Origin: an uncultured Bdellovibrionales bacterium
Lineage (GTDB): Bacteria > Patescibacteriota > Minisyncoccia > Moranbacterales > UBA1568
Assembly: GCA_964384235.1 (NCBI GenBank)
Contig: CAYLJX010000002.1
Location: 4,126-68,125 of the forward strand
Direction: 5' to 3'
DNA: 64,000 nucleotides
Both the position numbers and the translations under genes were made by a program. This document shows positions 27,749 to 64,000 of this stretch, one piece after another. The notes beneath the pieces were generated by a model. The model saw only the letters and a list, made by a program, of their open reading frames with translations, was not told the DNA's origin and made no database searches. Position 1 is the first letter of the stretch, and each line of letters begins with the position of its first letter.

Positions 27749-27772
27749 GATTCCGATGTATACGTCGGAATC
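27749..27772. promoter_or_regulatory. 24-bp near-perfect palindrome GATTCCGATGTATACGTCGGAATC, candidate dif-like Xer site
   Basis: Central TGTATA flanked by inverted 9-bp arms, 144 bp upstream of the xerC start. Confidence 0.3.
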
Positions 27773-28063
27773 ACTTATCCACAACTAAGATGCTTCAAAT
27801 AAGCCATAAATATAGGAATATGGTGTAATATTCATTGACCGAAAGGGGAAAACGCGCTAAACTGACTTTTGTAAAAATTAGGGTAAAGGCCCGATAGGGC
27901 GATATTTCTGCCTTTGGTGGAACGCGCTTTTTAAGGCCTTTGCTATCGAAAGATCCATCCTATTCGTACTCTTACGACTCATGTCCTTTCTTTTTTCCGG
28001 AACGGTTTCCGGAAGCTTTCGAGAAGGACGGCCGACAGGGCTGTCCAGACGGAAAAAAGAGGG

Positions 28064-29242: not shown

Positions 29243-29289
29243 CTTGTAGCTGGTAGGAAATAGCTTGTAGGATAATATGCAAGGAGAGA

Positions 29290-29315
29290 ATCCGGGTGAG
29301 AGCCCGGATTTTTTC
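29290..29315 (+). terminator. intrinsic terminator nested in a larger inverted repeat (29241-29339)
   Basis: ATCCGGGTGAGAGCCCGGAT TTTTTT flanked by AGCTTGTAGCTGGTAGG / CTACCAGCTACCAGCT arms. Confidence 0.65.
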
Positions 29316-29416
29316 TACCAGCTACCAGCTATTTCCTATCATCCTCACGAAGACTGTGGTATACTTCTAAGTGAAAAATCTTTCTTTCGAAACGACTGGC
29401 TTCTCTCGGGCAAGCT

Positions 29417-31306: not shown

Positions 31307-31327
31307 ATTACCTCCTAAGCAGTTCGT

Positions 31328-32458: not shown

Positions 32459-32560
32459 TAGCACGCGTGAGAGAAGAGCCGGAACGTGATATAATTGACA
32501 AGCTCTGGTATTTTTCCTCATTTCCTATCTCCTATCTCCTACTTCCTATCTCCTGTTTTT

Positions 32561-32998
32561 ATGATGTTCAGTGTCCCACAATTCATCGATGTCGAGGACA
32601 AGATCGCCGGTCCGCTCACCTGGAGGCAGCTCCTGTGGATGATCGGGATGGGAGCGATACTCCTTTTCTTTTACAGTATCTTCGATACGGCGCTCTTCAT
32701 CGTCATCGCGGTGCCGACGACGCTCCTCTTCATCGGGCTGGCCTTCTATCGGCCGAACGGCGTCTCGCTCACCACATTCATCTTTCATGGCATCCTCTTC
32801 TTCTTCCGTCCCAAGGTAGCAGTGTGGGAGCGGCCGGTACGGTCTCTCGGAGCGTCGCAGCGGACCGCCGAGGAGGCTGAGAAGAAGCGTCAGGCGGCCC
32901 TGGCGGCGGAGGCCGAGATGAAGGCGAAAAAGGATCTGAGCCAGGACAAGCTTCGTGAATTGGCGCGTATTCTGGATAGCCGAGGACGGGGAGTGTAA
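32561..32998 (+). CDS. PrgI/VirB3-like small membrane protein
   Basis: MMFSVPQFIDVEDKIAGPLTWRQLLWMIGMGAILLFF... has the two-TM architecture of PrgI-family proteins. Start at ATG 32561 within track ORF 32495-32998. Confidence 0.55.
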   Translation: MMFSVPQFIDVEDKIAGPLTWRQLLWMIGMGAILLFFYSIFDTALFIVIAVPTTLLFIGLAFYRPNGVSLTTFIFHGILFFFRPKVAVWERPVRSLGASQRTAEEAEKKRQAALAAEAEMKAKKDLSQDKLRELARILDSRGRGV

Positions 32999-33037
32999 GC
33001 GAGTTTTCTCTCCCACAATACAAACAACTCTCGAAAA

Positions 33038-33721
33038 ATGGAATTACTCAAACCAAAAAACAAGCCGGCAAGCGGCGGCAGCACACAGAAATACGTGGAC
33101 GTCGAGGAGATCCGCGACAGCGTCATCGTGCTCAAGAGCGGTGCGCTTCGTTCGGTATTGCTCGTGTCATCGCTTAACTTCGATCTCAAGTCGAGCGAGG
33201 AGCAGGATGCCATCATCGGGCAGTACCAGAATTTCCTCAACTCGCTCGATTTCCCCGTGCAGATCGTCATTTCTTCGCGACGTTTCAACATCGAGCCGTA
33301 CCTCGAGCTCCTCAAGGATCAGGAGAAGCAGCAGGAAAACGAGCTCCTGCGCTTCCAGATTTCCGAATACAAGGGCTTCATCAAGAACCTGACGGAAGTC
33401 TCGAACATCATGGCCAAGTACTTCTACGTGGTCATACCCTTTTCTCCGGTGGAGGACAAGAAGAGTGGGTTCTTCTCGCAGCTCTCCGGCATCTTCCAAC
33501 CCAAGCAGAGCATCGGGCTCCGCGGCGATCTCTTCGATACGTACAAGAGCCAGCTTTTCCAGCGCGTGGACCATGTCGCGGCGGCCCTCTCCGGAACGGG
33601 ACTGCGCGTCACGCAGCTCAATACCGAAGAGATCATCGAACTCCTGTACAACACCTACAACCCTTCGCTCTTCACGACTGCCATCGTCAAGAACATCGAA
33701 GCGGTGGAACTCGCCCCCTAA
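33038..33721 (+). CDS. VirB4-family N-terminal domain protein (split from the ATPase)
   Basis: YVDVEEIRDSVIVLKSGALRSVLLVSS...QDAIIGQYQNFLNSLDFPVQIVI resembles the N-terminal domain of VirB4/TrsE/PrgJ. Ends 12 nt before the ATPase ORF in a different frame. Confidence 0.55.
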   Translation: MELLKPKNKPASGGSTQKYVDVEEIRDSVIVLKSGALRSVLLVSSLNFDLKSSEEQDAIIGQYQNFLNSLDFPVQIVISSRRFNIEPYLELLKDQEKQQENELLRFQISEYKGFIKNLTEVSNIMAKYFYVVIPFSPVEDKKSGFFSQLSGIFQPKQSIGLRGDLFDTYKSQLFQRVDHVAAALSGTGLRVTQLNTEEIIELLYNTYNPSLFTTAIVKNIEAVELAP

Positions 33722-33732
33722 AACACATCGAC

Positions 33733-35754
33733 ATGAGCGGTATTTTTTTCAAAGACAGATATGGATCGGAGGAACTTTCCGTTCCCGACATCTCTCCGGT
33801 GACGGCCGGAGCCGCTTCGGCTGAGCCGTCTGCCGGGGTGAAGTCTTCGCCGGTCGCTACTCCTCCCTCTGTTCCCGCTCCCGCTCCTGCGGCTGTTTCT
33901 CCAAGGAGAGTCCAGGAGAAAGTCACCGAGAGGCGTCCTGAGAAAAAGGAACCGGCTCCCGGATTGTTTTCCCCGTCCCGCAGCACGAGCGAGAGCGAAC
34001 GCCTCTACCAGCAGGGTATCGCGACTATCAAGGATCTGATCGCTCCGCCCGCCATCAAGCTCTCGCCCAACAGCATGCACATCGGTGACGTGATCGCTCG
34101 CACCTACTTCGTCATCGCCTATCCGCGTTTCCTCTCGACCAACTGGTTCTCGCCGATCATCAACATCGACTTCGCGATGGATATCTCGCTCTTCGTCCAC
34201 CCGATCGACACGGCGGAGATCCTCAAGAACCTGCGCAAGTCAGCCACCCAGGTGCAGTCGCAGATCCATATCGAGGCCGAGGAGGGAAAGATCCGCAATC
34301 CCGTCCTGGAGACCGCCCTGGAAGACATCGAGAGTCTCCGTGACAAACTTCAGCAGGGGACGGAGAAATTCTTCCGCTTCGGTCTCTACATGACCATCTA
34401 CGCGCAAGATGAAAAGGATCTCAATGACAAGTGTCAGGCGGTGGAATCCATCCTCGAGGCCCAGCTCGTCTATACCAAGCCGGCCGTGCTCCGCATGGAT
34501 CAGGGATTCGCGGCGACCCGGCCGCTCGCGAACGATGTCTTGGATGTAGCCAACAACCTCAACACCGAACCGCTCTCGACGACCTTTCCGTTTGTCTCGT
34601 CCGACCTTTCTTCCAACGAGGGCATCCTCTACGGTATCAACCGGCACAACAACTCGCTCGTGCTCTTCGACCGTTTCAAGATGGAGAACGCCAACATGGT
34701 GGTCTTTGCCAAGTCCGGTGCCGGTAAGAGCTATACCGTCAAGCTCGAGGTGCTCCGCTCCATGATGTTCGGGGCGAGCGTCATCATCATCGATCCGGAA
34801 AACGAATACAAGCATCTCACCGAGACGGTGGGCGGGACGTTCCTCCAGGTCGCGCTCAATTCCGACGTGCACCTCAATCCCTTCGATCTGCCGAAGAAGA
34901 TCGACGACGAGGATAGTCAGGGTGTCTTCCGCAACACCATCGCCAACCTGGTCGGCCTCCTCCATCTCATGCTGGGATCGGTGACGCCGGAGGAGGATTC
35001 GATCCTCGACCGGGCCATCCGCGAGACTTATGCCATCCGGGATATCACGGAGATGAGCGACTTCTCACAGCTTACCCCGCAGTCGTTTCCGACCATGTCG
35101 GACCTCTATACCGTCCTCCAGAACATGGACGGGGCTGAATCGCTCGCGGCGCGTCTCGAGCGCTATACCGAGGGCATCTTCGGCGGCTTCCTCAACCGGC
35201 AGACCAACGTCGAGACGGACAATCAGCTGGTGACCTTCAATATCCGCGACCTGGAGGAGGAGCTCCGTCCCATCGCCATGTACATCATCCTGCAGTTCAT
35301 CTGGAACGAAATCCGCACGAAGATGAAGAAACGCCTCGTCGTCGTCGACGAAGCCTGGGTCATGATGCAGCATGACGATGCCGCGTCGTTCCTCTTCGGT
35401 ATCGCCAAGCGCTGCCGCAAGTACTACACGGGTCTCACCACCATCACGCAGGACATCGCGGACTTCGCCTCGTCGCGCTACGGCAAGCCAATCATCACCA
35501 ACTCCTCGATGCAGCTCCTCCTGCGCCAGTCGCCGGCCTCCATCGATTTCGTGTCGGAGACCTTTTATCTCACCGACCACGAGAAGTTCCTCCTCCTGGA
35601 GAGCAACGTCGGCGAGGGTATCTTCTTCGCGGGACAGAAGCATGCCGCCATCAAGGTGATCGCCTCCTACAGCGAGGACCAGATCATCACGTCCGACCCG
35701 CGCCAGCTCCTGGAAATCGAGGAGGCTAAGAAGGATTTCGATTCGGGAAATTAA
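33733..35754 (+). CDS. VirB4/TrsE/PrgJ-like conjugal-transfer ATPase
   Basis: Walker A VVFAKSGAGKSYT, Walker B LVVVDEAWVMM, C-terminal VirB4 motifs; about 100-aa Pro/Ala-rich low-complexity N-terminal segment. Confidence 0.85.
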   Translation: MSGIFFKDRYGSEELSVPDISPVTAGAASAEPSAGVKSSPVATPPSVPAPAPAAVSPRRVQEKVTERRPEKKEPAPGLFSPSRSTSESERLYQQGIATIKDLIAPPAIKLSPNSMHIGDVIARTYFVIAYPRFLSTNWFSPIINIDFAMDISLFVHPIDTAEILKNLRKSATQVQSQIHIEAEEGKIRNPVLETALEDIESLRDKLQQGTEKFFRFGLYMTIYAQDEKDLNDKCQAVESILEAQLVYTKPAVLRMDQGFAATRPLANDVLDVANNLNTEPLSTTFPFVSSDLSSNEGILYGINRHNNSLVLFDRFKMENANMVVFAKSGAGKSYTVKLEVLRSMMFGASVIIIDPENEYKHLTETVGGTFLQVALNSDVHLNPFDLPKKIDDEDSQGVFRNTIANLVGLLHLMLGSVTPEEDSILDRAIRETYAIRDITEMSDFSQLTPQSFPTMSDLYTVLQNMDGAESLAARLERYTEGIFGGFLNRQTNVETDNQLVTFNIRDLEEELRPIAMYIILQFIWNEIRTKMKKRLVVVDEAWVMMQHDDAASFLFGIAKRCRKYYTGLTTITQDIADFASSRYGKPIITNSSMQLLLRQSPASIDFVSETFYLTDHEKFLLLESNVGEGIFFAGQKHAAIKVIASYSEDQIITSDPRQLLEIEEAKKDFDSGN

Positions 35755-35763
35755 CGTTCGCTT

Positions 35764-36258
35764 ATGGGTGTCCGTGAGATGCGGGAAGACCTGAGGACGA
35801 TGAAGCGTGTCTCATCGCAATCGCGACGTATACAGACGGTCGTGCGCCAGGAATCCGGAGAAGGGAACTTCACAGGGGAAAAACCATCCAAGCTCCTGTA
35901 TATGGGAGTGGCGATGATCGCTCTTTTCAAGGATACCCTGGACCTGGCCATCGGTCCGCTTTTGGGGATCGTGACGGTCATCGGACTGTGTACCTCGTTT
36001 CTCATCTGGATCCTCCTCCTGGTCTTCGACCGCTCCGGCGGAAGGCACAACATGAAGCTGGCCCGAAGCGTCCTGCAGCTGGTCGTGGCCATCATAGAGT
36101 CGCTGGGCATCGGCCTCAACTATCTTCCCTGGCAGACGGCGACAGTCGTCATCCTCTATGTGATGGCCAAGAAGGCCTGGCGGAAACAGGCAAAGGAAGC
36201 GAGTGCGCAGAGGGGGCAGGGGACAGGGTATGTCGATGAGGATTTTCTCGAAGTATAG
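35764..36258 (+). CDS. small membrane protein (T4SS-like cluster)
   Basis: 164 aa with 3-4 TM helices. Confidence 0.45.
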   Translation: MGVREMREDLRTMKRVSSQSRRIQTVVRQESGEGNFTGEKPSKLLYMGVAMIALFKDTLDLAIGPLLGIVTVIGLCTSFLIWILLLVFDRSGGRHNMKLARSVLQLVVAIIESLGIGLNYLPWQTATVVILYVMAKKAWRKQAKEASAQRGQGTGYVDEDFLEV

Positions 36259-36272
36259 TCCAGAATGTATCT

Positions 36273-36926
36273 ATGGTTTCTCTCCCTTTCGATCAGAAGC
36301 GTTTCATCGTGACGGGACTGCTCGTCCTGTTTTCTCTCGGTTTTTTCGGGTTTTTCGAGGAGAGCGAAACGGTCAGTCCGGTGATCCAGAGTCTCATCGT
36401 GAGCACGGTGCTCTTCTTGGTGATTCCGGTTTTGTATTGTAAAATGGTACTCAAAGAGCCCTTGAAAAACATAGGTTGGCAGGACGGTAACGCGAAGGCC
36501 GGGACGGTTTCCGGTATCCTGGGAGTGGCTTCGGCGATCGCAGCGATATTCGCACTCATCACCTTTTCATCATTCGAGGACCACTATGGTTTTCCCGCCC
36601 TCGTGGAGGAAAACTTCTGGTGGTTCATGCTGTATGAGCTGGTTCTGGTGAGTTTCATCGCGTTCCTTTATGAGGTTTTCTTCCGCGGACTGATACAGCT
36701 TTCCTGGCTCAAGTCTCTCGGGGTGTGGGGTGTCGTGGCCCAGGCGCTGCTCTTCACGAGTCTCCTGTTTTTGAGCGGGGATATCTCCTGGCAGCAGGCG
36801 CCGCTCCTCCTCTTCAGTCCCATCGCTGGTCTCGTGGCGCACTTCTCCCGTTCCGTGTGGTATTCTTTCGCTGCCAGCTGGGTGTTCCTTTTCCTGACCG
36901 ACGTGCTTCTGCTCATCCTTCGATAA
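36273..36926 (+). CDS. CPBP-family (CAAX/Abi) intramembrane metalloprotease
   Basis: YEVFFRGL (EExxxR-type motif) and later FxxxH/H motifs; 6 TM helices. Confidence 0.6.
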   Translation: MVSLPFDQKRFIVTGLLVLFSLGFFGFFEESETVSPVIQSLIVSTVLFLVIPVLYCKMVLKEPLKNIGWQDGNAKAGTVSGILGVASAIAAIFALITFSSFEDHYGFPALVEENFWWFMLYELVLVSFIAFLYEVFFRGLIQLSWLKSLGVWGVVAQALLFTSLLFLSGDISWQQAPLLLFSPIAGLVAHFSRSVWYSFAASWVFLFLTDVLLLILR

Positions 36927-36931
36927 TCCCT

Positions 36932-39694
36932 ATGCGGTTTTTCAAAAAACAAAAATACATCCTTGCGCTGTTTCTGGTCGCGGAACTTTTCGTGACTACC
37001 GCTTCCCCTGCGATGGCGGGTCTGTTCGGTGGTGGCGGGGCCAAGCTCCCTTCGGTGTCCAAGGTCGCCGGAGAGCTGGAAAAGCGCTACCATCTGAACC
37101 TTGAATCGATCCAGGACAACGGCGAGTCTTTCAATACTACCGGCAACAAGGTGCCGACTCCGGAAGTGACCCTGTTTTTCAGCCCGAGTGATCCGAAGTC
37201 CGGAGAGAAGCTGACGGCGAGGGCTCTCCCTGTCTATTATTCGAATACCAAGGAGAACCTCTACTTCACCTGGTATCTGAAACGGAAGGGTTGCAATATC
37301 GGCGGCTCCGCCCCGGCAGGCTGTGACTTGGACGGCAACGGCAGCGTGACGGTCGAGGACTGGAAGATCGCGGCCGCGCAGATTCTGGCTCAGAACGGAT
37401 TCGATACGACGAGAGCGAACTACTCGAGCAATACGGATAACGACGGGTATCGGGCCAAGTTCGGCGGGGATAGCCGTACCAATACTCCGGACCGCTGCTA
37501 TGTCCATGATAACTCGTCCGGGATCAACTATGAGTTGACCGAGAACGACAACGGTATCGACTTCAGCTGTCCGAGCGGGACGTCACCGGTCTGTCTGGTC
37601 GGAGAGGGTGATGTGACGAGCGGTACGAACGACACACTGGGAGGAAATTCATACTTCGATATCACCGATTCAAATACCTGTACGGTCTCCGGGTATCCGT
37701 ATTGCGCGAGCGGCGGGGTGGCGACATGCAATAACGGGACGCCGCGCTGTGTCGCTGATCCGAACGCCCTGACGAACGATTGCGGGACGGCGCTTTCTTC
37801 CTGCAGTTCGACCTCCGAGCGGAGTACCAATCCGGTCTGCGAGCACCTGTTTCCGGATGCTCCCGGCGATCGGACGGGCGACGGGTCGTTCGGGGCGAGC
37901 GAGGAGCGTTTCTGGGGGACGGACCCGAGCGATTCCGATACGGCCGACAACGGCAACAAGGACGAGGCGAATATCGCAGGACTAGGGAGAGATACTTTCA
38001 CCTGGAACTACGCTCCCGGCGACAAGGTCGGTGTGGCGGTCGAGGGGGTGTCCACGATCGCGACCAAGCATGACGATGCCTCGATGATGATCATGTGGGC
38101 CATGCCCAAGAAGGATTGTCCGGTGCGCAACACTGGCTCCTATACCAAGACGATCAAGGGTTACAAAGTCGTCATCCCTACGGCGAGCATGGACCTCAAT
38201 GACTGCCTCGAGAGAAACCTGGTCGATCCGACGGAAGGCGGCCAGGCGACCAACCTGGATGTTTCCGTGAACGCGACTCCCGATTACCCGATCAATGACG
38301 AGACTCCCGACAAGGGCGGGGATGTCGTGACGGCCACCGCGAGCGTTGCCAACGCCGATCGGAACCTGACCAAGATACTTTTCGATTGGCGGGTGGATAT
38401 AAGCGACAACGTCCAGTTCAGCCGGACGTCGGGGGATGTGGCGACCGGTATCCAGGAAGAGCTCCGTGCCTTAGGCCTTCTGGGGAATACCAAAGGGAAC
38501 GCGCTCGATACGGTCCAGCTCAAACTCGATATTTCTACCGGAACGATCCTCGGCGGTCGTCCGCTCACCTCCTATCTCAACAACGGTGCCGGGTACCTGC
38601 GCTTCGCGGTCGAGGTATCGGAGAGTTTCGAAGGAGGCATCACCCGGCGCGGCCGAAGCGACGTCATCGTGAAGTTCACTTCGACCAACCGCAAGATCAC
38701 GGCGTACCGGGTAGAACCGACCCTGGTCGGGGGAGCGATGCGGGCCAGACTGGCGGCCGCCCCGGCAGGCATCATCTGCAACGGCAATGCCCTGGACCGC
38801 AATGCCTGTCGCGTGATCAAGAATGAGATCATCGGCCTGCGGATCGACCCGACCGGACTCAGTAATTTCCAGTGGACCATCAATGGCGATACGCTCAGTT
38901 GCAGTACCAAGGTTTCTCCGGATTGTCCGGATGACCGGCAGAACGAGATGAACTTCTTCCCGGTCGCAGGCAATGTCGGTGACACCTATACGGTATCCGT
39001 GACCGCCAACGAGATCGCGACGGACAAGGTGGTGACCCTGGCACGGACCTTTCACGTCGTCCAGCCGGAGGTATCGATCGTGACGCTCGATCAGGAGGCC
39101 GCCTGGCCGAAGTTCCTCGGACAGTATCGGGATATCACGGACGCCTCCAATTGCAGCGGAGGGCTCTGCGATGACTACAGTACGACGATCTTCCAGGCCT
39201 TTTCCGGAAGCGGTGTGCGCTTCAAGGCGGATTTTCTCCCGGGATTCCTGGGGGCGACGGCCGAGCGTCAGTGGAATATCGACGGTTTCGATGTCCCGGA
39301 GAACGCTCCCGGCGAGATCGCCTTTCAGGCCACCAAGGAGGCACCGAGCGTGTACAATGTGAGTCTTAACGCCTTGGTCGTGCAGTCCCCGGAAACCCGT
39401 CGGGCGCTCCTGGACATATGGAATATCTCGCCGCTTGATTCCCCGGAAATCCATTTTTCGAGCACGAATCAGGTGGAGCTCCAGGACCCCGAGTTCGTCA
39501 AGGGACCGAGTACCGGAACCGGGAAATTCCTGGCGGCGATAGCCGGGTATGTCCCCTCGAGCCTCCTCTTCGCGTTCCGGATGCTCCTCTCCGGGTTCCT
39601 CATCCTCTTCACGACCGGATTCATCATGGCGCTCATCCCCGAGCAGCGGGCCGCCAGAGCCTCGTCTTCCCGCAGGGGAGAGGATATCGGATGA
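36932..39694 (+). CDS. large Cys/Gly/Thr/Asn-rich cell-surface protein with signal peptide and C-terminal TM anchor
   Basis: Start MRFFKKQKYILALFLVAELFV (signal); about 920 aa; many Cys in apparent disulfide-rich modules; C-terminal FLAAIAGYVPSSLLFAFRMLLSGFLILFTTGFIMALI anchor then basic tail. Confidence 0.6.
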   Translation: MRFFKKQKYILALFLVAELFVTTASPAMAGLFGGGGAKLPSVSKVAGELEKRYHLNLESIQDNGESFNTTGNKVPTPEVTLFFSPSDPKSGEKLTARALPVYYSNTKENLYFTWYLKRKGCNIGGSAPAGCDLDGNGSVTVEDWKIAAAQILAQNGFDTTRANYSSNTDNDGYRAKFGGDSRTNTPDRCYVHDNSSGINYELTENDNGIDFSCPSGTSPVCLVGEGDVTSGTNDTLGGNSYFDITDSNTCTVSGYPYCASGGVATCNNGTPRCVADPNALTNDCGTALSSCSSTSERSTNPVCEHLFPDAPGDRTGDGSFGASEERFWGTDPSDSDTADNGNKDEANIAGLGRDTFTWNYAPGDKVGVAVEGVSTIATKHDDASMMIMWAMPKKDCPVRNTGSYTKTIKGYKVVIPTASMDLNDCLERNLVDPTEGGQATNLDVSVNATPDYPINDETPDKGGDVVTATASVANADRNLTKILFDWRVDISDNVQFSRTSGDVATGIQEELRALGLLGNTKGNALDTVQLKLDISTGTILGGRPLTSYLNNGAGYLRFAVEVSESFEGGITRRGRSDVIVKFTSTNRKITAYRVEPTLVGGAMRARLAAAPAGIICNGNALDRNACRVIKNEIIGLRIDPTGLSNFQWTINGDTLSCSTKVSPDCPDDRQNEMNFFPVAGNVGDTYTVSVTANEIATDKVVTLARTFHVVQPEVSIVTLDQEAAWPKFLGQYRDITDASNCSGGLCDDYSTTIFQAFSGSGVRFKADFLPGFLGATAERQWNIDGFDVPENAPGEIAFQATKEAPSVYNVSLNALVVQSPETRRALLDIWNISPLDSPEIHFSSTNQVELQDPEFVKGPSTGTGKFLAAIAGYVPSSLLFAFRMLLSGFLILFTTGFIMALIPEQRAARASSSRRGEDIG

Positions 39695-39760
39695 GACTTC
39701 TCTTTTGATGTGAGTACACAAAAACCCGACATCTCATAAGGTGTCGGGTTTTCTCATATG

Positions 39761-39842
39761 TGGGTAGGGAGAGACTCGAACTCTCATGGATTGCTCCGCT
39801 AGCTCCTAAGGCTAGTGCGTATACCAATTCCGCCACCTACCC
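39761..39842 (-). tRNA. tRNA-Leu(TAG)
   Basis: Minus-strand GGGTAGG TG GCGG..ACGC A CTAGC CTTAGGA GCTAG (anticodon loop CUUAGGA, anticodon UAG); variable arm; T-arm GAGAG TTCGAGT CTCTC; acceptor CCTACCC A. CCA not encoded. Confidence 0.75.
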
Positions 39843-39853
39843 AGCATCTTTTC

Positions 39854-40165
39854 CTAAATGATTTTCGCCTTTTCTCCGAACACTGAGAGGAGTCGTTCGG
39901 TTTCTTCCTTCACCGGACCCTCGTTGTCATACTCTCCGTGATGACGCGTGGTCTCACCGTACGTGTGTTTCTTCTGGTCCAGATGGAGACTGAGGAAGAG
40001 TTTTGTGCCTTCCAACCGGGTGTAGCAGTGGAAACGCGGATACCCTGAACTACCTAAGACCCGGACGAAACTCATTTCCTTATTTTCCTCACGCTGGAAA
40101 GCGTACCCGGCCCGTCGGAGGAGCGAGACCGGATTTTCAGGGATTGATTCGATGAGGAGTTTCAT
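39854..40165 (-). CDS. hypothetical protein (103 aa) between two tRNA genes
   Basis: Intact ORF; no recognisable motif. Confidence 0.4.
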   Translation of the reverse strand: MKLLIESIPENPVSLLRRAGYAFQREENKEMSFVRVLGSSGYPRFHCYTRLEGTKLFLSLHLDQKKHTYGETTRHHGEYDNEGPVKEETERLLSVFGEKAKII

Positions 40166-40201
40166 AAGATTCCAAAAAAGCCCCTTTCAGGGCTTGTCTT
40201 G

Positions 40202-40272
40202 TCGGAGTGCCGAGAATCGAACTCGGATTACACGCACCCGAAGCGTGCGTAATACCATTATACCACACTCCG
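40202..40272 (-). tRNA. tRNA-Pro(CGG)
   Basis: Minus-strand CGGAGTG ... CACGC TTCGGGT GCGTG (anticodon CGG, U33, G37) ... CCGAG TTCGATT CTCGG CACTCCG A. 3-bp D-stem; CCA not encoded. Confidence 0.75.
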
Positions 40273-58213: not shown

Positions 58214-58735
58214 ATGGACATCGTTTCGCACGGCTTGTGGGGGTCGCTCGCGTTCGGTCGCAAAAACCGAAAGAGTTTTTGGACAGCCTTTTTCTTCGGG
58301 ATCGCGCCGGACCTTTTCTCGTTCGGATTGTTCACGATAGGCGTGTGGCTGGGCCTCGAACACGGGACTGACTGGTCGGGCGGGCCGCCTGACCCGAGCC
58401 GTATCCCGTCGTACGTCCATCAGCTGTACAACGTGACGCATAGTCTTGTCGTCTTTGCGATCGTTTTCGTCCTCGTGATGCTCATCCGTCGAAAACCCTG
58501 GTGGGAGATGTCCGCCTGGGGACTGCACATCCTTGTCGATATCCCGACCCATTCGGAGCGATTTTTCCCCACTCCGTTTCTCTGGCCGTTCTCTGATTTC
58601 CATATCAACGGCATCTCGTGGGGACAGCCGATTATCTTCATTCCCAATGTGATCTTGCTTCTCGCTCTGTATTTCTGGTATTTCGTCATCCGCCGCCGAG
58701 CGTGGTTTTTCGCGAAAAAACCAGAAAAACCTTGA
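58214..58735 (+). CDS. YdjM/DUF457-family membrane-bound metal-dependent hydrolase
   Basis: MDIVSHGLWG N-terminus and spaced His residues across four TM helices. Confidence 0.6.
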   Translation: MDIVSHGLWGSLAFGRKNRKSFWTAFFFGIAPDLFSFGLFTIGVWLGLEHGTDWSGGPPDPSRIPSYVHQLYNVTHSLVVFAIVFVLVMLIRRKPWWEMSAWGLHILVDIPTHSERFFPTPFLWPFSDFHINGISWGQPIIFIPNVILLLALYFWYFVIRRRAWFFAKKPEKP

Positions 58736-59471: not shown

Positions 59472-59662
59472 GTGTTTTCTTGGAAATTTATCCATACCCT
59501 TCAGGAAACCTTCCCGGAGGGTTTTTCATTTGACAAACGGACGAATATCGTTCTAATATGACGTTTCATACAAAAAGATAAAAACCAAACGGCAGCACCG
59601 CTCTTCATACCGGAAAATAACAGGAGGGAAGCTTCTCAGTCGGGCACTAAAAAGGCACAGGA

Positions 59663-62600
59663 ATGCGACAGGATACGTTGTCGGTGATCGTCCCCACCTT
59701 GAACGAGGAGGGCAATATCGAGGCATTGGTAAAACGTTTGGATCGAGCTCTTTCAGGGGCTCAGATTGAGTATGAGGTCGTCTTTGTTGATGACCACTCG
59801 GTCGATCAGACCAGGGAAAAGATAGAGTCGCTCAAGAAAGAATACCCCCTCGCTGTCTTTCTGAAAGAAGGGGCGCGCGGCAAAGCACAATCCCTGCTTG
59901 AGGGATTCCGGTATGTCCAGTACGAGCATATCGCTTTCATCGACGCGGACCTCCAGTATCCGCCGGAAGCGCTGCCGGGAATGCTCGAGAAACTCCATCA
60001 GGGCTTGGATATCGTGGTGGCGGACCGCCGAGCCGATACCGCGGGAGGATGGGGGAGAAACCTCACCAGCCGGGCGTTCCATTTTTTCTTTTCGAAACTG
60101 CTCCACGACCTCGATATCGATACCCAGGCAGGACTGAAGGTCTTCAAGGCGCGCATCGCCAAGGAAGTGAACGTCAGCCCTTCGCCCTGGACGTTCGATC
60201 TGGAATTCCTCCTCAGCGCCCGCAATTACGGGTACGTCATCGGAAGCTTTCCGATCACGTTCGCCGATCGTTTTTCCGGCAGTTCCAAGATCGTCGTATG
60301 GAAAGCGATCTTTGAAATCGGCTGGAACGCGCTCAAGCTGAAAACGAAACGCCGCTCGCCGCTCCTCATCCATCCTGAAAAGGACGGCTCGATGGTGGGC
60401 GCAGGCGTCGCACACAACACGCAGCGCTTCGTGACGCACACCACCCTGGAACACCATGTGTCGGCGCTCAATACCTTCGTCCCGTGGCAGAGAAACCTCA
60501 TCCTCGGTGTCCTGCTGATCATAGGGATCGGACTGATCTGGAACGCTCTCTTCACCGGCATCCTGGTCGTAGCTTCCCTTACGGCTTTCTACTTCATCGA
60601 CGCCGTCTTCAATCTCTTCCTCGTCATGAAGAGCCTCAAGACCCCGCCGGAAATTGGGAGCACGGACGAGGAACTTGCGGCCCTTGATCAAGAACAGCTC
60701 CCGGTCTATTCCGTCCTCTGTCCGCTCTACAAAGAAGCCCACATGCTTCCGACTTTCGTGCAGGCGATGGGTGGTCTCGACTGGCCGAAGAACAAGCTCG
60801 ACGTGCTTCTCCTTTTGGAAGAGAACGATGAGGAAACGATCGCCGCAGCACGGGCGATGGATCTCCCAGCCTTCGTGAAGATCGTCGTGGTCCCGCACTC
60901 CATGCCCAAGACCAAGCCGAAGGCCTGCAACTACGGTCTCTCCTTCGCGAGCGGGGAGTACGTCGTCATCTACGACGCCGAGGACATCCCCGATCCGCTG
61001 CAGCTCAAGAAGGCCTACCTCGGTTTTCAAAAGGCCAAGCCGGAAGTGCGCTGCCTCCAGGCCAAGCTCAACTATTTCAACCCGCACCAGAACTTCCTGA
61101 CGCGTCTCTTCACCGCCGAGTACTCGCTGTGGTTCGATGTCATCCTGCCGGGACTCCAGTCCATCAACACGAGCATTCCTCTCGGCGGGACGAGCAACCA
61201 CTTCCGGACGCGCGACCTCCTCGAGCTCGAGGGCTGGGATCCCTTCAACGTGACGGAGGACTGCGATCTCGGCGTGCGCATCTTCAAGCGCGGCTACCAG
61301 ACCGCCATCATCGACTCGGTGACGCTCGAGGAAGCGAACAGCAATGTCAGGAACTGGATCCGTCAGCGCTCCCGCTGGATCAAGGGCTACATGCAGACCT
61401 ACCTCGTGCACATGCGCCACCCGGTGACCTTTCTTCGGGAGAACGGCTGGCACGCCTTCATCTTCCAGATCGTCATCGGTGGCAAGATCGCGGTCATGTT
61501 CATCAATCCCTTCCTGTGGCTCGCGACGCTCGCGTATTTCACACTCTACGCCTTCGTCGGACCGACGCTCGAGGCCCTGTATCCGCCGCACATCTTCTAC
61601 TTCGCGGCCATCACGCTCGTCTTCGGCAACTACCTCTACCTCTACTACTACATGATCGGGACGGCCAAGCGTGAGCACTTCGATACCGTCAAGTACGTCT
61701 TCTTCGTGCCGTTCTACTGGATCCTGGTGAGTTATGCGGCCTTCATCGGGCTCTATCAGCTCGTCACCAAGCCGCACTACTGGGAGAAGACCCACCACGG
61801 CCTGCACCTGAAGAAGGAGGAAAAGAAGAAGCGTCTCACGGAAATCGCCGAGAGCCTTACGCTTGGCCGACCATGGTTTCCCAAGAGTCCCCTCTCATTT
61901 CCGATGGCTAAATGGCTCCTGTCCAAGGAGAGTGTCTTGATCGGGGCGTTGCTTGCCTCCAGTCTCCTGAACTTCGTCTTCAATGCATATCTCGGCAGAC
62001 AGCTCTCGTTCGAGGAACTCGGTCTGGTGACCTTCGTCAACACGCTGTGGTACATCACGATGATATTCTTCAGCGCGTTTTCCACGACGCTTAATCACCA
62101 CACCGCGTATCTTACGGGCAAGAAAAAGGGGAACATACAGGAACGGATTTTCTCTTACAGCCTGAAAAAGGGATTGCGTATCATGGTCGGTTTCTCGGTC
62201 GTTTGGTTCGTTTTCTCTCCGCTTTTGGCGCGCTTCTTTCAGATCGAGAGCATCTTCACTCTCCTTCTCTTCACACCGGTCTTCATTTTCGGTCTTATCA
62301 CGGCGGCAAGCCGAGGTTTTTTTCAGGGAACGTTCCGTTTCACGTATACTGCCTTTCTTCTGGTCTTCGAGGCGCTTATAAAGCTTCTTATCGCGATAGC
62401 GTTCGTGTCGTTCGAAGCGCCTGAGCTCGTCTACCTTTCCATTCCGGCATCGATTTTCCTTTCGGCACTCCTGGCACTCTTCCTTTCCGGTCTGGCTGTA
62501 CGTGAGAAAACCAAGGAAATATCGTCGACGGAACGTTTCCATTTTCCGAAACGCTTCTTCGGGGCGACGCTTCTCTCCAATGTTTCGGTGATGGTATTCC

Positions 62601-64000
62601 TGAGCTTCGATGTTCTCCTGGTGAAGCACTACATGGATCCGTATGCGGCCGGAGAGTACGCGCTGGTGTCGCTTGCCGGGAAAATGATATTTTTCTTCGG
62701 TTCGCTCGCGAGCACGTTCCTCCTCACGTACGTGAGCCGGAACGAAGGCCGTCAGGTGAGTTCCAAGAAGATTTTCAGCTATACGTACGGTGCGACGTTC
62801 TTCCTGGTTTCCGTCGGCGTGCTTGTTTTGGGTCTTTTCGGTGACACGTTCGCGCCGCTTCTCTTCGGCGAGAAGGCGCTTGTCATCACCGATTATCTTT
62901 TCCTCTACACTCTGTCCCTTTCCTTGTTCACGCTTGCAGGTGTCGTGGTGACCTACCATCTCGCCCGTCGGGAATATTTTCATACGTTCATTTCGCTTGC
63001 CGGATCGCTCTCCATGGCTGCAGGCATCGTCTTCTTTCATGAGTCGCTCGAAAGCGTCGTTTGGGTCATCTTTTTCTCAAGCGCGGCGACATGGGGTCTC
63101 GTGGAGTTCTTCCATCTCTTCGGCAGGAAGACACGGTTCGTCGCGCGTGCCTTCCAGGACCTCTTTGAGATCTTCAGTCGTCGTCTGTTGCCGTCCGCAA
63201 CCAAGGACAATGCCTTGGGACAGAGGATCCTCATCTTCAATTGGCGTGACATGCGGCACAAGTTCGCCGGTGGGGCGGAACTCTACGTCGAGGAGATAGC
63301 CCGTGATTTCGTGCGTCAAGGGAACCAGGTGACGCTTTTCTGCGGCAATGATGGGAATTCCCCGCGCATCGAGACGGTAGAAGGTGTTCGGATCATCCGT
63401 CGAGGAGGTTTCTACCTGGTATATTTCTGGGCCTTCGTCTATTACATGCTCCGTTTCCGGGGACGGTATGACGTGATTGTCGATTCGCAGAACGGCATCC
63501 CGTTCTTCACACCGCTGTATGCCAAGGAAACGACATACTGTCTCATGCATCATGTGCACCAGGAAGTCTTCCGTCGTTCGCTTCCCTGGCCGCTTTCGAC
63601 GTTCGCCCGCTTTCTTGAAAAGGACCTGATGCCGATCGTCTACAAGAAGGTGCGTTTTATCACCGTTTCCGAATCGAGCCGCCAGGAGATGGAGGAAATC
63701 GGTCTGGGGCAGGCCGGTATCGAGATCGTCCATCCAGGCGTCCATTTGAAACGTCTGGCTATCGGAACAAAGACACCGCAGCCGACCATTCTTTATCTGG
63801 GACGTCTCAAGGCGTATAAGTCAGTCGACGTTCTCATTCGCGCCTTCCAAATGGTCGTCAAAGAGCGTCCCGAGGCGAAGCTTCTCATAGCCGGATGTGG
63901 AGAAGAGGAAGGATATCTCAAGCGGCTGGCCCGCGATCTCCGGCTCAATGACCGTCAGATACAGTTTTTGGGCCGGGTGTCCGAAGAAGAGAAGGTGAAG
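59663..64000 (+). CDS. giant multidomain glycan synthase/exporter: GT2 (DPM1-like), processive GT2 (QxxRW), Wzx/MOP flippase-like 12-TM domain, GT4. 3' end beyond the window
   Basis: Frame (codon starts congruent to 2 mod 3) read codon-by-codon from ATG 59663 to 64000 with no stop. Domains: VIVPTLNEEGNIE...VFVDDHS...FIDADLQ (GT2); VYSVLCPLYKE...YDAEDIP...QRSRWIKG (processive GT2); 12 TM helices with MOP-like organisation; ILIFNWRDM...LYLGRL..KLLIAGCGEEEGYL (GT4). Not in the ORF track. Confidence 0.8.
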   Translation, partial: MRQDTLSVIVPTLNEEGNIEALVKRLDRALSGAQIEYEVVFVDDHSVDQTREKIESLKKEYPLAVFLKEGARGKAQSLLEGFRYVQYEHIAFIDADLQYPPEALPGMLEKLHQGLDIVVADRRADTAGGWGRNLTSRAFHFFFSKLLHDLDIDTQAGLKVFKARIAKEVNVSPSPWTFDLEFLLSARNYGYVIGSFPITFADRFSGSSKIVVWKAIFEIGWNALKLKTKRRSPLLIHPEKDGSMVGAGVAHNTQRFVTHTTLEHHVSALNTFVPWQRNLILGVLLIIGIGLIWNALFTGILVVASLTAFYFIDAVFNLFLVMKSLKTPPEIGSTDEELAALDQEQLPVYSVLCPLYKEAHMLPTFVQAMGGLDWPKNKLDVLLLLEENDEETIAAARAMDLPAFVKIVVVPHSMPKTKPKACNYGLSFASGEYVVIYDAEDIPDPLQLKKAYLGFQKAKPEVRCLQAKLNYFNPHQNFLTRLFTAEYSLWFDVILPGLQSINTSIPLGGTSNHFRTRDLLELEGWDPFNVTEDCDLGVRIFKRGYQTAIIDSVTLEEANSNVRNWIRQRSRWIKGYMQTYLVHMRHPVTFLRENGWHAFIFQIVIGGKIAVMFINPFLWLATLAYFTLYAFVGPTLEALYPPHIFYFAAITLVFGNYLYLYYYMIGTAKREHFDTVKYVFFVPFYWILVSYAAFIGLYQLVTKPHYWEKTHHGLHLKKEEKKKRLTEIAESLTLGRPWFPKSPLSFPMAKWLLSKESVLIGALLASSLLNFVFNAYLGRQLSFEELGLVTFVNTLWYITMIFFSAFSTTLNHHTAYLTGKKKGNIQERIFSYSLKKGLRIMVGFSVVWFVFSPLLARFFQIESIFTLLLFTPVFIFGLITAASRGFFQGTFRFTYTAFLLVFEALIKLLIAIAFVSFEAPELVYLSIPASIFLSALLALFLSGLAVREKTKEISSTERFHFPKRFFGATLLSNVSVMVFLSFDVLLVKHYMDPYAAGEYALVSLAGKMIFFFGSLASTFLLTYVSRNEGRQVSSKKIFSYTYGATFFLVSVGVLVLGLFGDTFAPLLFGEKALVITDYLFLYTLSLSLFTLAGVVVTYHLARREYFHTFISLAGSLSMAAGIVFFHESLESVVWVIFFSSAATWGLVEFFHLFGRKTRFVARAFQDLFEIFSRRLLPSATKDNALGQRILIFNWRDMRHKFAGGAELYVEEIARDFVRQGNQVTLFCGNDGNSPRIETVEGVRIIRRGGFYLVYFWAFVYYMLRFRGRYDVIVDSQNGIPFFTPLYAKETTYCLMHHVHQEVFRRSLPWPLSTFARFLEKDLMPIVYKKVRFITVSESSRQEMEEIGLGQAGIEIVHPGVHLKRLAIGTKTPQPTILYLGRLKAYKSVDVLIRAFQMVVKERPEAKLLIAGCGEEEGYLKRLARDLRLNDRQIQFLGRVSEEEKVK

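What the first reader, a model, noticed from the sequence alone, without database searches (positions are those of the whole stretch)
59663..64000. A single open reading frame of at least 1446 codons fusing two GT2 domains, a flippase-like domain and a GT4 domain, missed by the ORF track
A polysaccharide assembly line normally spread over several genes (initiating GT2, processive D,D,D,QxxRW synthase, Wzx-like flippase, GT-B glycosyltransferase) appears as one uninterrupted frame with no stop to the window end. The ORF track shows only antisense shadows here (59753-61807, 61895-63040, 63077-63745 minus). I have not seen such a four-module fusion described; if genuine it could be a self-contained glycan synthesis and export machine, but I cannot judge its novelty without a database search.
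Basis: seen in the sequence. Interest (0 to 1): 0.8.

Follow-up and report, generated by a model that had tools for sequence, protein, structure and literature searches.

The report
Four-enzyme glycan-synthesis fusion gene in Patescibacteria
The open frame is a real gene, cut off by the window end, for a roughly 1,550-residue membrane protein joining four sugar-polymer enzymes; it is widely conserved in the tiny Patescibacteria, sits in databases only as "glycosyltransferase", and probably leads their main surface-glycan pathway.

Summary
The frame is open from ATG 59663 to base 64000 (1446 codons, chance about 2e-26). All four domains are real: a DPMS/GtrB/ArnC-type GT2, a BcsA/HAS-type GT2 synthase with D, DxD, TED and QRSRW, a 12-helix MOP (Wzx/MurJ) fold, and a GT4. 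The ORF track missed the frame only because it runs off the window.

The fusion is not an assembly artefact. More than 120 independent database clusters share 50-71% identity over the full length, at 1540-1640 aa, so about 110 residues lie beyond the window. Related genomes carry the same modules split or recombined in every order.

The protein is not self-contained. In related loci it leads a conserved operon: variable GT2/GT4/deacetylase/methyltransferase genes, then two GT-C glycosyltransferases, a secreted glycosidase-like protein, an LAxTG surface protein and a sortase.

[quoted passage not shown] It sits next to a DPMS-like GT2 and the same GT-C.

Best reading: the protein is a hub combining a processive backbone synthase with a "three-component" lipid-linked-sugar supply (synthase plus flippase) for outside GT-C enzymes.

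Eight full-text searches found no description of it. I rate it a new variant of known kinds, of moderate interest.

The parts
59530..59559 (+). Promoter-like site (TTGACA, 18 nt spacer, TAATAT) in the 190-bp gap upstream of the gene
   Evidence: Consensus scan only, 10 of 12 matches. Not evidence of function.
59663..64000 (+). 3'-truncated CDS of the four-module glycan-synthesis protein (1446 codons here; about 1550 expected)
   Evidence: Open frame. Codon-position GC matches real genes. Shares 50-71% identity over 100% of its length with more than 120 protein clusters of 1540-1640 aa.
59663..60382 (+). Module 1 (residues 1-240): GT-A fold GT2, polyprenyl-phosphate glycosyltransferase type (DPMS/GtrB/ArnC-like). 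Invariant D43 D44, and D94-x-D96 at 90% or more.
   Evidence: Pfam, 122.8 bits. PDB sequence hits: PfDPMS 5mlz 4.7e-27, GtrB 5ekp 7e-19, ArnC 9hwj 7.5e-15. Foldseek rmsd 2.9-3.0 A over about 230 residues to 5mlz and 9asc. Conservation.
60482..60640 (+). Transmembrane helical hairpin (helices 274-293 and 295-326) between the two GT2 domains. It belongs to the module-2 family unit.
   Evidence: AF2 model with block pLDDT 86-96 across these helices. Hydropathy. Homologs that have only module 2 align from about residue 250-300 onward.
60680..61447 (+). Module 2 catalytic domain (residues 340-595): BcsA/HAS-type processive GT2. Invariant D389, D438-A-E-D441, T531-E-D533 (TED), Q568-R-S-R-W572, PLGGTSNHF 506-514.
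   Evidence: Pfam. PDB sequence hit to BcsA 7lby, 6.8e-15. Foldseek: CvHAS 7sp7 2e-15, BcsA 4p00 rmsd 5.7 A over 468 columns. hhalign to BcsA 98.8%, E = 1e-16. Invariant columns.
61448..61804 (+). Module 2 membrane part: helices 596-627, 642-669 and 679-702, then the invariant cytoplasmic motif YWEKTxHGL (706-714)
   Evidence: AF2 secondary structure. Charge and hydropathy analysis. This motif was one of the two patterns that retrieved 593 relatives.
61805..61924 (+). Variable, low-confidence linker. This is where related genomes split the gene or carry insertions.
   Evidence: Column conservation 0.09 for residues 726-750. pLDDT 35-47. Natural splits into GT2a-GT2b and MOP-GT4 genes occur here.
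61925..63175 (+). Module 3 (residues 755-1171): 12-helix MOP-superfamily (Wzx/MurJ/MATE) transporter fold. Invariant N770, G889, E903, K907, D983, K1007.
   Evidence: Pfam Polysacc_synt 43.8 bits. AF2 pLDDT 91.6, pTM 0.89. Foldseek: MurJ 9nu8 TM-score 0.73, WzxE 9g9o 0.70.
63230..64000 (+). Module 4 (residues 1190-1446, cut by the window end): GT4 (GT-B) glycosyltransferase. The EX7E motif lies beyond the window in homologs.
   Evidence: Pfam Glyco_transf_4 62 bits and Glycos_transf_1 50.4 bits. PimB' 3oka 1.9e-7. Homolog consensus ...MEGWGIVxIEANACGTP....
59753..63745 (-). Three antisense shadow ORFs (59753-61807, 61895-63040, 63077-63745). Not genes.
   Evidence: Listed. No Pfam family at E <= 0.01. 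The opposite strand carries the conserved protein.

Best explanation
This is a genuine gene, cut off by the window end, for a membrane protein of about 1550 aa and roughly 16 transmembrane helices. The protein is conserved across Patescibacteria and leads a cell-surface glycan operon. The four modules and their catalytic motifs are shown directly.

The mechanism is inferred, as two coupled tracks. Track 1: module 2, a BcsA/HAS-type processive GT2, polymerises a beta-linked glycan from a nucleotide sugar and feeds it across the membrane. Track 2: module 1, a DPMS/GtrB-type enzyme, loads a sugar onto polyprenyl phosphate at the inner face. Module 4 (GT4) and the accessory GT2/GT4, deacetylase and methyltransferase genes may elaborate lipid-linked sugars. 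Module 3 (MOP) flips the lipid-linked sugar or sugars to the outer face. There, the two conserved GT-C enzymes encoded downstream in related loci transfer them onto the exported polymer or another envelope acceptor. A secreted glycosidase-like protein trims the product.

The protein therefore fuses a synthase-dependent pathway with the donor-synthase and flippase parts of a three-component extracytoplasmic glycosylation system.
For: Fusion genuine: more than 120 independent clusters with 100% coverage. The frame and codon bias also support a real gene.

Module identities: Pfam, NCBIfam and PDB sequence hits. High-confidence AF2 models. Foldseek hits to DPMS/ArnC/GtrB, HAS/BcsA and MurJ/WzxE. 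Catalytic motifs are invariant in 121 sequences.

Functional linkage of the modules: in 85 related loci they occur as one gene, as GT2a-GT2b plus MOP-GT4, as GT2b-MOP-GT4, as GT2a-GT2b-GT4, and in other arrangements.

Link to GT-C enzymes: one neighbour family occurs in 54 of 81 loci, across phyla. A second occurs in 33 Patescibacteria-type loci. Their members hit PMT_2/PMT in 16 of 47 and 4 of 34 cases, with best E-values 2.6e-8 and 5.4e-6. In Sporolactobacillus the order is MshEN-GT2b, then a DPMS-like GT2 with a GtrA_DPMS_TM domain, then the GT-C. In a Dormibacterota genome, a DPMS-like GT2 is fused to this GT-C and to a GH5 domain.

Operon order is conserved in Patescibacteria-type loci.

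A polymer product is suggested by GH5 or other glycosidase-like partners and by CE4 or PIG-L deacetylases.

There is precedent for a Wzx-type protein proposed to flip a polyprenyl-P-monosaccharide: GacK in the GacI/J/K/L system (bioRxiv 10.1101/180810).
Against: No biochemistry exists; donor sugars, acceptors and product are unknown.

The window ends before the downstream genes, so the operon is inferred from homologs of 55-71% identity.

Module 2 appears to have only four membrane-crossing helices plus one hydrophobic helix of unresolved topology. That is fewer than BcsA, so an autonomous channel is not shown.

The MOP clade is most often fused to GT4 or soluble GT2 domains rather than to module 1. 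This fits flipping of an elaborated lipid-linked oligosaccharide at least as well as flipping of a simple polyprenyl-P-sugar.

Some related genomes lack the MOP module near the gene.
Confidence: 0.5

Rival explanations
1. Single-track assembly line. Module 1 initiates on polyprenyl monophosphate, as the archaeal AglJ does. Module 2, module 4 and the accessory GT2/GT4 enzymes extend one lipid-linked oligosaccharide at the inner face. The MOP domain flips it. The GT-C enzymes then ligate or polymerise it outside. In this reading module 2 is not an autonomous polymer exporter.
For: The MOP clade is promiscuously fused to GT4, GT2, GT4+GT2 and GT4+GNAT domains, as expected if cytoplasmic GTs build the flippase's cargo. 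The middle of the operon is variable, like a glycan-specific region. No Bac_transf or Glycos_transf_4 initiating phosphoglycosyl transferase was recorded within 10 kb in L001, L004 or L005. Module 1 hits AglJ at 5.8e-16. Module 2 seems to have only four crossing helices.
Against: Module 2 keeps the full signature of membrane-embedded processive synthases (TED, QxxRW on an interface helix), and its fold matches HAS and BcsA. Its roughly 50%-identical homologs outside Patescibacteria occur with neither MOP nor GT4, but with a c-di-GMP receptor domain typical of exopolysaccharide synthases.
Confidence: 0.25
2. A lipoglycan or glycoprotein pathway with PIM/LM- or GPI-like logic. Module 4 (GT4) glycosylates a membrane lipid at the inner face. 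The MOP domain flips that glycolipid. The GT-C enzymes then extend it, or O-glycosylate the adjacent LAxTG stalk protein, using polyprenyl-P-sugar made by module 1.
For: The best solved relative of module 4 is the phosphatidylinositol-mannoside mannosyltransferase PimB'. MOP-GT4 is the commonest fusion of this MOP clade, in 37 of 149 representatives. PIG-L-type de-N-acetylases recur in the operon. The GT-C families hit the PMT/PMT_2 protein-mannosyltransferase models. A Ser/Thr/Gly-rich sortase substrate is encoded next to them in at least 11 loci. The pathway analogy itself (PimA/PimB', Ppm1, GT-C mannosyltransferases; PIG-A/PIG-L/DPM1) rests on established knowledge and was not tested here.
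Against: This reading gives no role to module 2, the most conserved part of the protein. The PimB' hit is weak (1.9e-7 over 77 residues) and GT4 acceptor specificity cannot be read from sequence. The sortase and stalk-protein genes are absent from many loci.
Confidence: 0.15
3. Artefact. Adjacent same-strand genes were fused by sequencing or assembly error, or the real genes are the long antisense ORFs.
For: Some related genomes do carry the modules as separate adjacent genes in different frames, so a one-base error could in principle create or destroy a fusion.
Against: The same co-linear architecture appears in more than 120 independent clusters from NCBI, JGI, ENA and Logan assemblies, including closed 1-Mb genomes. 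The GT2a-to-GT2b junction is conserved and well folded. The antisense ORFs have no family hits and have shadow-type codon GC.
Confidence: 0.01

Closest known systems
Polyprenyl-phosphate glycosyltransferases: GtrB, ArnC, archaeal/eukaryotic DPMS, GacI, PgfS, AglJ (module 1)
   Same: Both have a GT-A fold with a DxD motif. Sequence match to PfDPMS is 4.7e-27 and structural match is 2.9-3.0 A rmsd over about 230 residues. An amphipathic helix follows the catalytic core.
   Different: Module 1 has no transmembrane hairpin or GtrA-like domain of its own and runs straight into the module-2 hairpin. It scores far below every NCBIfam equivalog cutoff, for example ArnC 61.5 vs 529 and AglJ 58.7 vs 325. 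The sugar it transfers is unknown.
Membrane-integrated processive GT2 synthases: BcsA, hyaluronan synthase, PgaC/IcaA, E. coli NfrB (module 2)
   Same: It carries the D, DxD, TED and QxxRW motifs, an interface helix bearing QRSRW, and flanking transmembrane helices. Foldseek gives HAS 2e-15 and BcsA 4p00 rmsd 5.7 A. hhalign gives BcsA 98.8%, NfrB 97.1% and PgaC 95.7%. The terminal W(D/E)KTxH motif is shared with NfrB.
   Different: It is a distinct family, with CelA 84 vs 699 bits and PgaC 97 vs 422 bits. Identity to BcsA and NfrB is only about 23-25%. It probably has four crossing helices. The Patescibacteria copies have no PilZ or MshEN domain, whereas the roughly 50%-identical copies in Bacillota, Actinomycetota and Chloroflexota carry N-terminal MshEN.
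Three-component extracytoplasmic glycosylation systems: GtrA/B/C, CsbB/GtcA/YfhO, GacI/J/K/L (PMC7389260, PMC11127046, bioRxiv 10.1101/180810)
   Same: All combine a polyprenyl-P-sugar synthase, a flippase and a GT-C transferase, encoded together. As with GacK, the flippase candidate here is Wzx-like.
   Different: Here the synthase and flippase are fused to each other and to two further glycosyltransferases. There are two GT-C paralogs. The acceptor polymer appears to be made by the same polypeptide rather than by an ABC-transporter or Wzy pathway.
MOP-superfamily lipid-linked glycan flippases: Wzx/WzxE, MurJ (module 3)
   Same: It has 12 helices in two six-helix lobes, TM-scores of 0.70-0.73, and a Pfam Polysacc_synt hit above threshold.
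   Different: No PDB relative is detectable by sequence. It belongs to a small dedicated clade, with 130 representatives at E <= 1e-30 among 1.84 billion. That clade is usually fused to cytoplasmic GT domains. Its cargo is unknown.
Mycobacterial PIM/LM/LAM and eukaryotic GPI pathways (established knowledge, not tested)
   Same: The parts list matches: a GT4 acting at the inner face, a DPMS-type donor synthase, a flipping step, and GT-C enzymes outside. A PIG-L-type de-N-acetylase is present in many of the related operons.
   Different: Those pathways use separate proteins and include no BcsA-type synthase. No evidence here identifies a lipid acceptor.

Membership tests
GT2 polyprenyl-phosphate glycosyltransferase (GtrB/DPMS/ArnC type), module 1 | GT-A fold with a conserved DxD and acidic residues, similar to solved members | tested here: met
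   D43 and D44 are invariant; D94-x-D96 is at least 90% conserved. 5mlz 4.7e-27. Rmsd 2.9-3.0 A to 5mlz and 9asc.
GT2 polyprenyl-phosphate glycosyltransferase (GtrB/DPMS/ArnC type), module 1 | Own C-terminal membrane anchor (GtrB transmembrane hairpin or GtrA_DPMS_TM domain) | tested here: inconclusive
   The only helices that follow (274-326) belong to the module-2 family unit. The stand-alone Sporolactobacillus neighbour does have GtrA_DPMS_TM.
GT2 polyprenyl-phosphate glycosyltransferase (GtrB/DPMS/ArnC type), module 1 | Transfers a sugar to polyprenyl phosphate | not testable with these tools
   Needs an enzyme assay.
Named equivalogs ArnC, AglJ, PgfS, PgaC/IcaA, CelA (NCBIfam) | Score at or above the curated cutoff | tested here: not met
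   Scores vs cutoffs: 61.5 vs 529, 58.7 vs 325, 69.5 vs 500, 97.3 vs 422, 84.1 vs 699.
Membrane-embedded processive GT2 synthase (BcsA/HAS/PgaC/NfrB type), module 2 | D, DxD, TED and Q(R/Q)xRW motifs | tested here: met
   D389, D438AED441, T531E532D533 and Q568RSRW572 are invariant in 121 and in 19 cross-phylum sequences.
Membrane-embedded processive GT2 synthase (BcsA/HAS/PgaC/NfrB type), module 2 | GT domain packed on interface helices and a transmembrane bundle forming a polymer channel | tested here: inconclusive
   The fold matches HAS and BcsA. However, only about four crossing helices are inferred, and helix 679-702 has unresolved topology.
Membrane-embedded processive GT2 synthase (BcsA/HAS/PgaC/NfrB type), module 2 | c-di-GMP receptor module (PilZ in BcsA, MshEN in NfrB) | tested here: not met
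   There is no PilZ or MshEN hit in the window protein. MshEN is present in non-Patescibacteria homologs.
MOP flippase (Wzx/MurJ), module 3 | 12-14 helix MOP fold and a Polysacc_synt-type profile match | tested here: met
   Pfam 43.8 vs 28.2 bits. AF2 pLDDT 91.6. TM-score 0.73 to MurJ and 0.70 to WzxE.
MOP flippase (Wzx/MurJ), module 3 | Translocates a lipid-linked glycan | not testable with these tools
   Inferred only from fusion partners and gene context.
GT4 retaining glycosyltransferase, module 4 | Glyco_transf_4 plus Glycos_transf_1 halves, and an EX7E motif | tested here: inconclusive
   Both halves are found. EX7E lies past the window end but is conserved in homologs (EGWGIVxIE).
Three-component extracytoplasmic glycosylation system | Co-encoded polyprenyl-P-sugar synthase, flippase and GT-C transferase | tested here: inconclusive
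   This is met in homologous loci: GT-C families occur in 54 and 33 loci with PMT_2 hits. The window ends before the expected GT-C genes and the contig could not be extended.
Wzx/Wzy-dependent pathway | Initiating phosphoglycosyl transferase (WbaP/WecA type) and Wzy polymerase in the cluster | tested here: not met
   Neither Bac_transf nor Glycos_transf_4 is recorded among genes within 10 kb in L001, L004 and L005. Other loci were not screened systematically.

The most novel reading that the evidence does not exclude
The fusion may be natural 'Rosetta stone' evidence that a MOP-family transporter is the dedicated flippase for polyprenyl-monophosphate-linked sugars. The identity of such flippases is still unsettled. 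It would also mean that Patescibacteria build their main envelope glycopolymer on a monophosphate lipid carrier without a classical initiating phosphoglycosyl transferase. One polypeptide would couple backbone synthesis, donor synthesis and donor flipping.
Probability: 0.2. Interest if true: 0.8.

Novelty: new variant of a known kind. Interest (0 to 1): 0.55.

Why it matters
Patescibacteria make up a large share of bacterial diversity, have genomes of about 1 Mb, and live attached to other cells. Almost nothing is known about their surface glycans.

This 1,550-residue gene is conserved from Saccharibacteria and Microgenomates to Parcubacteria, which marks it and its operon as a core envelope pathway.

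The fusions give unusually direct genomic evidence that four activities work together: a BcsA-type synthase, a DPMS-type donor synthase, a Wzx-type flippase and GT-C transferases. They also supply a single expressible protein for testing what a MOP flippase carries.

The link to MshEN-bearing homologs in Bacillota, Actinomycetota and Chloroflexota points to an uncharacterised c-di-GMP-controlled exopolysaccharide system outside Patescibacteria.

Tried and rejected
Contig extension failed. An exact-protein look-up of the upstream YdjM-like gene found only Logan contigs of 2-4 kb that end before the gene. The ATPase gene is not on record. Two exact-pattern scans of metagenome contigs with the window's last bases found nothing.

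The afdb50 fold library was unavailable.

PDB sequence searches found nothing for the MOP module or for the two GT-C families.

Literature: eight full-text searches returned no paper describing this architecture. They returned only background on NfrB, MshEN and three-component systems.

I considered NfrB as the closest studied relative of module 2, because of the shared MshEN association and the WxKTxH motif. The profile comparison ranks BcsA higher, so I treat module 2 as a separate family of the same superfamily.

The upstream window genes (copper resistance, peptidase M10, BipA) are unrelated to glycans.

A second apparent giant ORF, 21809-25009 on the minus strand, turned out to be real only from about Met521.

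The model coordinates are not exposed, so channel geometry and packing between the MOP and synthase modules could not be examined.

Full report
**Observation.** The + strand frame beginning at 59651 has its last stop at 59648-59650 and none up to base 64000. The first start codon after that stop is ATG 59663, which gives 1446 codons. A promoter-like TTGACA-18-TAATAT lies at 59530-59559. With the window's composition, a stop-free run of this length has probability about 2e-26. GC at codon positions 1/2/3 is 0.56/0.37/0.74, matching the well-supported genes of the window.

They are antisense shadows. The ORF lister omits ORFs that run off the source, which is why the frame was 'missed'.

**Domains.** Pfam places five matches above their gathering scores:
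- Glycos_transf_2 at residues 7-144
- Glyco_tranf_2_3 / Glyco_trans_2_3 at 349-630
- Polysacc_synt at 757-1002
- Glyco_transf_4 at 1203-1364
- Glycos_transf_1 at 1368-1443

*Module 1* is specifically of the polyprenyl-phosphate glycosyltransferase type. Its best solved relatives are Pyrococcus dolichol-P-mannose synthase (4.7e-27), GtrB and ArnC. The NCBIfam matches are PgfS, ArnC, AglJ and similar, all far below the equivalog cutoffs.

*Module 2* resembles BcsA (6.8e-15).

*Module 3* has no solved relative detectable by sequence.

*Module 4* weakly resembles PimB'.

In an alignment with 120 homologs, the catalytic signatures are invariant or nearly so:
- D43 D44 and D94xD96 in module 1
- D389, D438AED441, T531ED533 and Q568RSRW572 in module 2
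- charged intramembrane residues E903, K907, D983 and K1007 in module 3
- EX7E in the homologs' GT4 C-termini

**Structure.** AlphaFold2 models built on 80-sequence alignments are confident. Residues 1-745 give pLDDT 90.0 and pTM 0.85. Residues 740-1190 give pLDDT 91.6 and pTM 0.89.

Foldseek against the PDB gave these matches:
- Module 1 matches ArnC, DPMS and GtrB at about 3 A rmsd over about 230 residues.
- Module 2 with its helices matches Chlorella virus hyaluronan synthase (2e-15) and BcsA (4p00, rmsd 5.7 A over 468 columns).
- Module 3 matches MurJ (TM-score 0.73), MATE transporters and WzxE (0.70).

The secondary structure shows a helical hairpin at 274-326, the QRSRW-bearing interface helix at 562-583, helices 596-627, 642-669 and 679-702, and twelve long helices in module 3.

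Both GT2 domains and the GT4 must face the cytoplasm, and MOP proteins are N-in. The number of crossings between the domains must therefore be even. Helix 679-702 is flanked by K/R on both sides but is not amphipathic, so its disposition is unresolved. I infer about 16 crossings in all, of which only four belong to module 2.

**The fusion is genuine and conserved.** A search of 5.8 billion protein clusters returned 1678 relatives at E <= 1e-10. The best 120 are nearly all 1540-1730 aa with the same Pfam content. Most cover 100% of the query at 48-71% identity, and about a dozen longer ones align in two pieces. They come from NCBI, JGI, ENA and Logan assemblies, including closed genomes of about 1 Mb. 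Where named, they are called only 'glycosyltransferase', and their sources are Moranbacteria, Falkowbacteria, Niyogibacteria, Parcubacteria and Patescibacteria MAGs.

The window therefore lacks about 110 C-terminal residues. The peptidase-M10 and P-type ATPase genes upstream in the window also precede the homolog in a closed Moraniibacteriota genome. This supports a Moranbacteria-like origin.

A scan of one genome per species found 593 relatives. Mapping the four modules onto the 85 loci fetched up to that point gave these architectures:

| Architecture | Count |
|---|---|
| GT2a-GT2b-MOP-GT4 | 11 |
| GT2b-MOP-GT4 | 9 |
| GT2a-GT2b-GT4 | 5 |
| GT2b-GT4 | 2 |
| GT2a-GT2b | 12 |
| Separate MOP-GT4 gene, next to GT2a-GT2b or GT2b in six loci and 3 kb away in one | 7 |
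| Stand-alone MOP next to GT2b | 4 |

The split point is the variable, low-confidence linker at residues 715-754. Some MAGs that carry the gene are labelled Bdellovibrionales, Gammaproteobacteria, Verrucomicrobiia or Fimivivens. I did not verify those labels.

**The module-2 family outside Patescibacteria.** Homologs about 50% identical occur in Chloroflexota, Actinomycetota (Nocardioides, Paraconexibacter, Solirubrobacterales), Bacillota (Paenibacillus macquariensis, Sporolactobacillus) and Dormibacterota.

Several of these carry N-terminal MshEN domains, a known c-di-GMP receptor (PMC5013675). The studied MshEN-linked synthase is E. coli NfrB, which makes the N4 phage receptor glycan, probably from UDP-ManNAc (PMC8669469).

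NfrB aligns with the Paraconexibacter protein at 22% identity over 438 residues, including the terminal W(D/E)KTxH motif. Profile comparison of the module-2 family ranks BcsA first (98.8%, 1e-16), then NfrB (97.1%, 5e-11), then PgaC (95.7%, 1e-8). Module 2 is thus a separate family of the processive synthase superfamily. The Patescibacteria copies have lost the c-di-GMP domain.

**Gene context.** The window ends inside the gene, so context comes from homologs. In the locus of the closest homolog (71% identity) and in Moraniibacteriota, the gene is followed by several genes:
- GT2 genes
- a CE4 deacetylase
- methyltransferase, SDR and GT4 genes
- two proteins of about 520-545 aa with no Pfam hit
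- a secreted protein with a CarboxypepD_reg domain

I clustered all ORFs from 81 loci. One of the roughly 540-aa families occurs in 54 loci, including non-Patescibacteria ones. The other occurs in 33. The secreted protein occurs in 24, a roughly 305-aa GT2 in 32, and CE4 in 14.

Scanning every member against Pfam shows that both membrane families are GT-C-like. PMT_2/PMT hits occur in 16 of 47 members (best 2.6e-8) and 4 of 34 members (best 5.4e-6).

The gene order is strikingly constant in Patescibacteria-type loci:
1. the core gene
2. a variable block of GT2, GT4, CE4 or PIG-L, GNAT, methyltransferase and SDR genes
3. GT-C 2
4. GT-C 1
5. the glycosidase-like protein
6. a small secreted protein with a Gly/Ser/Thr-rich stalk and an LPKTG/LAxTG sorting signal
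7. a sortase

In Sporolactobacillus the order is MshEN-GT2b, then a DPMS-like GT2 with a GtrA_DPMS_TM domain, then the GT-C. In a Dormibacterota genome, a DPMS-like GT2, this GT-C and a GH5 domain form one protein. In a Woesebacteria genome, the GT-C carries a GH5 domain.

**The MOP clade.** A full HMMER pass over 1.84 billion representatives found only 130 at E <= 1e-30. Classified with the module sequences and sampled with Pfam, the best 149 divide as follows:
- about 70 stand-alone MOP
- 37 MOP-GT4
- about 20 MOP joined to a roughly 300-residue extension, which is a soluble GT2 in five of the seven sampled
- 12 GT2b-MOP-GT4
- 7 four-module proteins
- a few MOP-GT4-GT2 and MOP-GT4-GNAT

This flippase family is therefore habitually welded to cytoplasmic glycosyltransferases.

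**Interpretation.** The module identities, conserved catalytic residues, genuineness of the fusion and the operon in relatives are shown. The mechanism is inferred.

GT-C enzymes use lipid-phosphate-linked sugars at the outer face; this rests on established knowledge of ArnT, PMT, GtrC, YfhO and GacL. The recurrent linkage and fusion of a DPMS-type enzyme with these GT-C proteins therefore argues that module 1 makes their donor. A MOP domain in the same polypeptide is the obvious candidate to flip it, as proposed for GacK.

Module 2 has every hallmark of a processive exporter and is accompanied by glycosidase-like partners, as in cellulose, PNAG and Pel/Psl systems. So I favour a dual-track model (confidence 0.5): a backbone synthase plus an outside decoration system.

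The main rival is a single lipid-linked oligosaccharide assembly line (0.25). The promiscuous MOP-GT fusions, the variable operon middle, the apparent lack of an initiating phosphoglycosyl transferase near three loci and the small helix count of module 2 support it.

A lipoglycan or protein O-glycosylation variant (0.15) is suggested by the PimB'-like GT4, the PIG-L genes, the PMT-type GT-C hits and the adjacent sortase substrate.

An artefact is essentially excluded (0.01).

The recurrent CE4 and PIG-L de-N-acetylases hint at an N-acetylhexosamine-containing product. The sugars remain unknown.

**Novelty and limits.** All four modules are known kinds, and the family is already in databases. 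The window copy is thus another member of an existing but uncharacterised protein family. I found no paper describing the architecture, its operon or its link to MshEN synthases. The searchable library is incomplete. I rate it a new variant of known kinds, with interest 0.55.

I could not extend the contig, search the AlphaFold database or inspect model coordinates.

Noticed in passing
L015 21042-21608, L024 22050-22625, L025 22613-23239 (and 9 other loci): A small secreted protein family. It has a signal peptide, a Cys-containing domain of about 100 aa (FPSC..QCFC..GIQTNWWK..WGL..YLAKN), a Gly/Ser/Thr-rich stalk, and an LPKTG/LAxTG sorting signal with a hydrophobic tail. It sits next to a sortase and just downstream of the two GT-C genes, so it is a candidate wall-anchored glycosylation target.
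   Followed up: partly
L078 9119-11425 and 14616-16913; L085 9086-11407; L061 9065-11326; L063 7511-11389; L080 6934-10944: Outside Patescibacteria, the module-2 synthase carries one to six N-terminal MshEN (c-di-GMP receptor) repeats. This looks like an uncharacterised c-di-GMP-controlled exopolysaccharide synthase family in Bacillota, Actinomycetota and Chloroflexota. Paenibacillus macquariensis has two copies, each preceded by an NTP_transferase gene and followed by a GT2 gene.
   Followed up: partly
L069 11308-14607; L046 17169-19931: The conserved GT-C family is fused to a GH5 cellulase-type domain in a Woesebacteria genome. In a Dormibacterota genome it is fused to an N-terminal DPMS-like GT2 and a C-terminal GH5 domain.
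   Followed up: partly
window 21809-25009 (-): This 1066-codon ORF is real only from about Met521. The real part is a UbiA-family prenyltransferase domain (residues 815-1032, 4.9e-30) preceded by extra transmembrane helices. The first 520 codons are Arg/His/Pro-rich shadow sequence.
   Followed up: partly
window 26613-39694 and tRNAs at 39760-40272: A tyrosine integrase (26613-27677, minus strand) and a TraG/VirB4-like P-loop ATPase (33733-35754) lie near two large proteins with no Pfam hit (29417-31306; 36725-39694, 989 aa). tRNA-Leu and tRNA-Pro are adjacent. This may be an integrated mobile element or a secretion/conjugation-like module.
   Followed up: no
window 50169-57408: A copper-handling block: a multicopper oxidase with a cupredoxin domain, an HMA-DsbD_2-cupredoxin membrane protein and a P-type ATPase with an HMA domain, preceded by a peptidase-M10 protein. 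The M10 and ATPase pair is syntenic with a closed Moraniibacteriota genome.
   Followed up: partly
L089-L091 (Logan runs SRR25392349, SRR14932582, SRR16481186): Short contigs from three public sequencing runs encode a protein identical to the window's YdjM-like gene product (58214-58735), with the same neighbouring genes. The same or a near-identical organism is therefore present in those samples.
   Followed up: no
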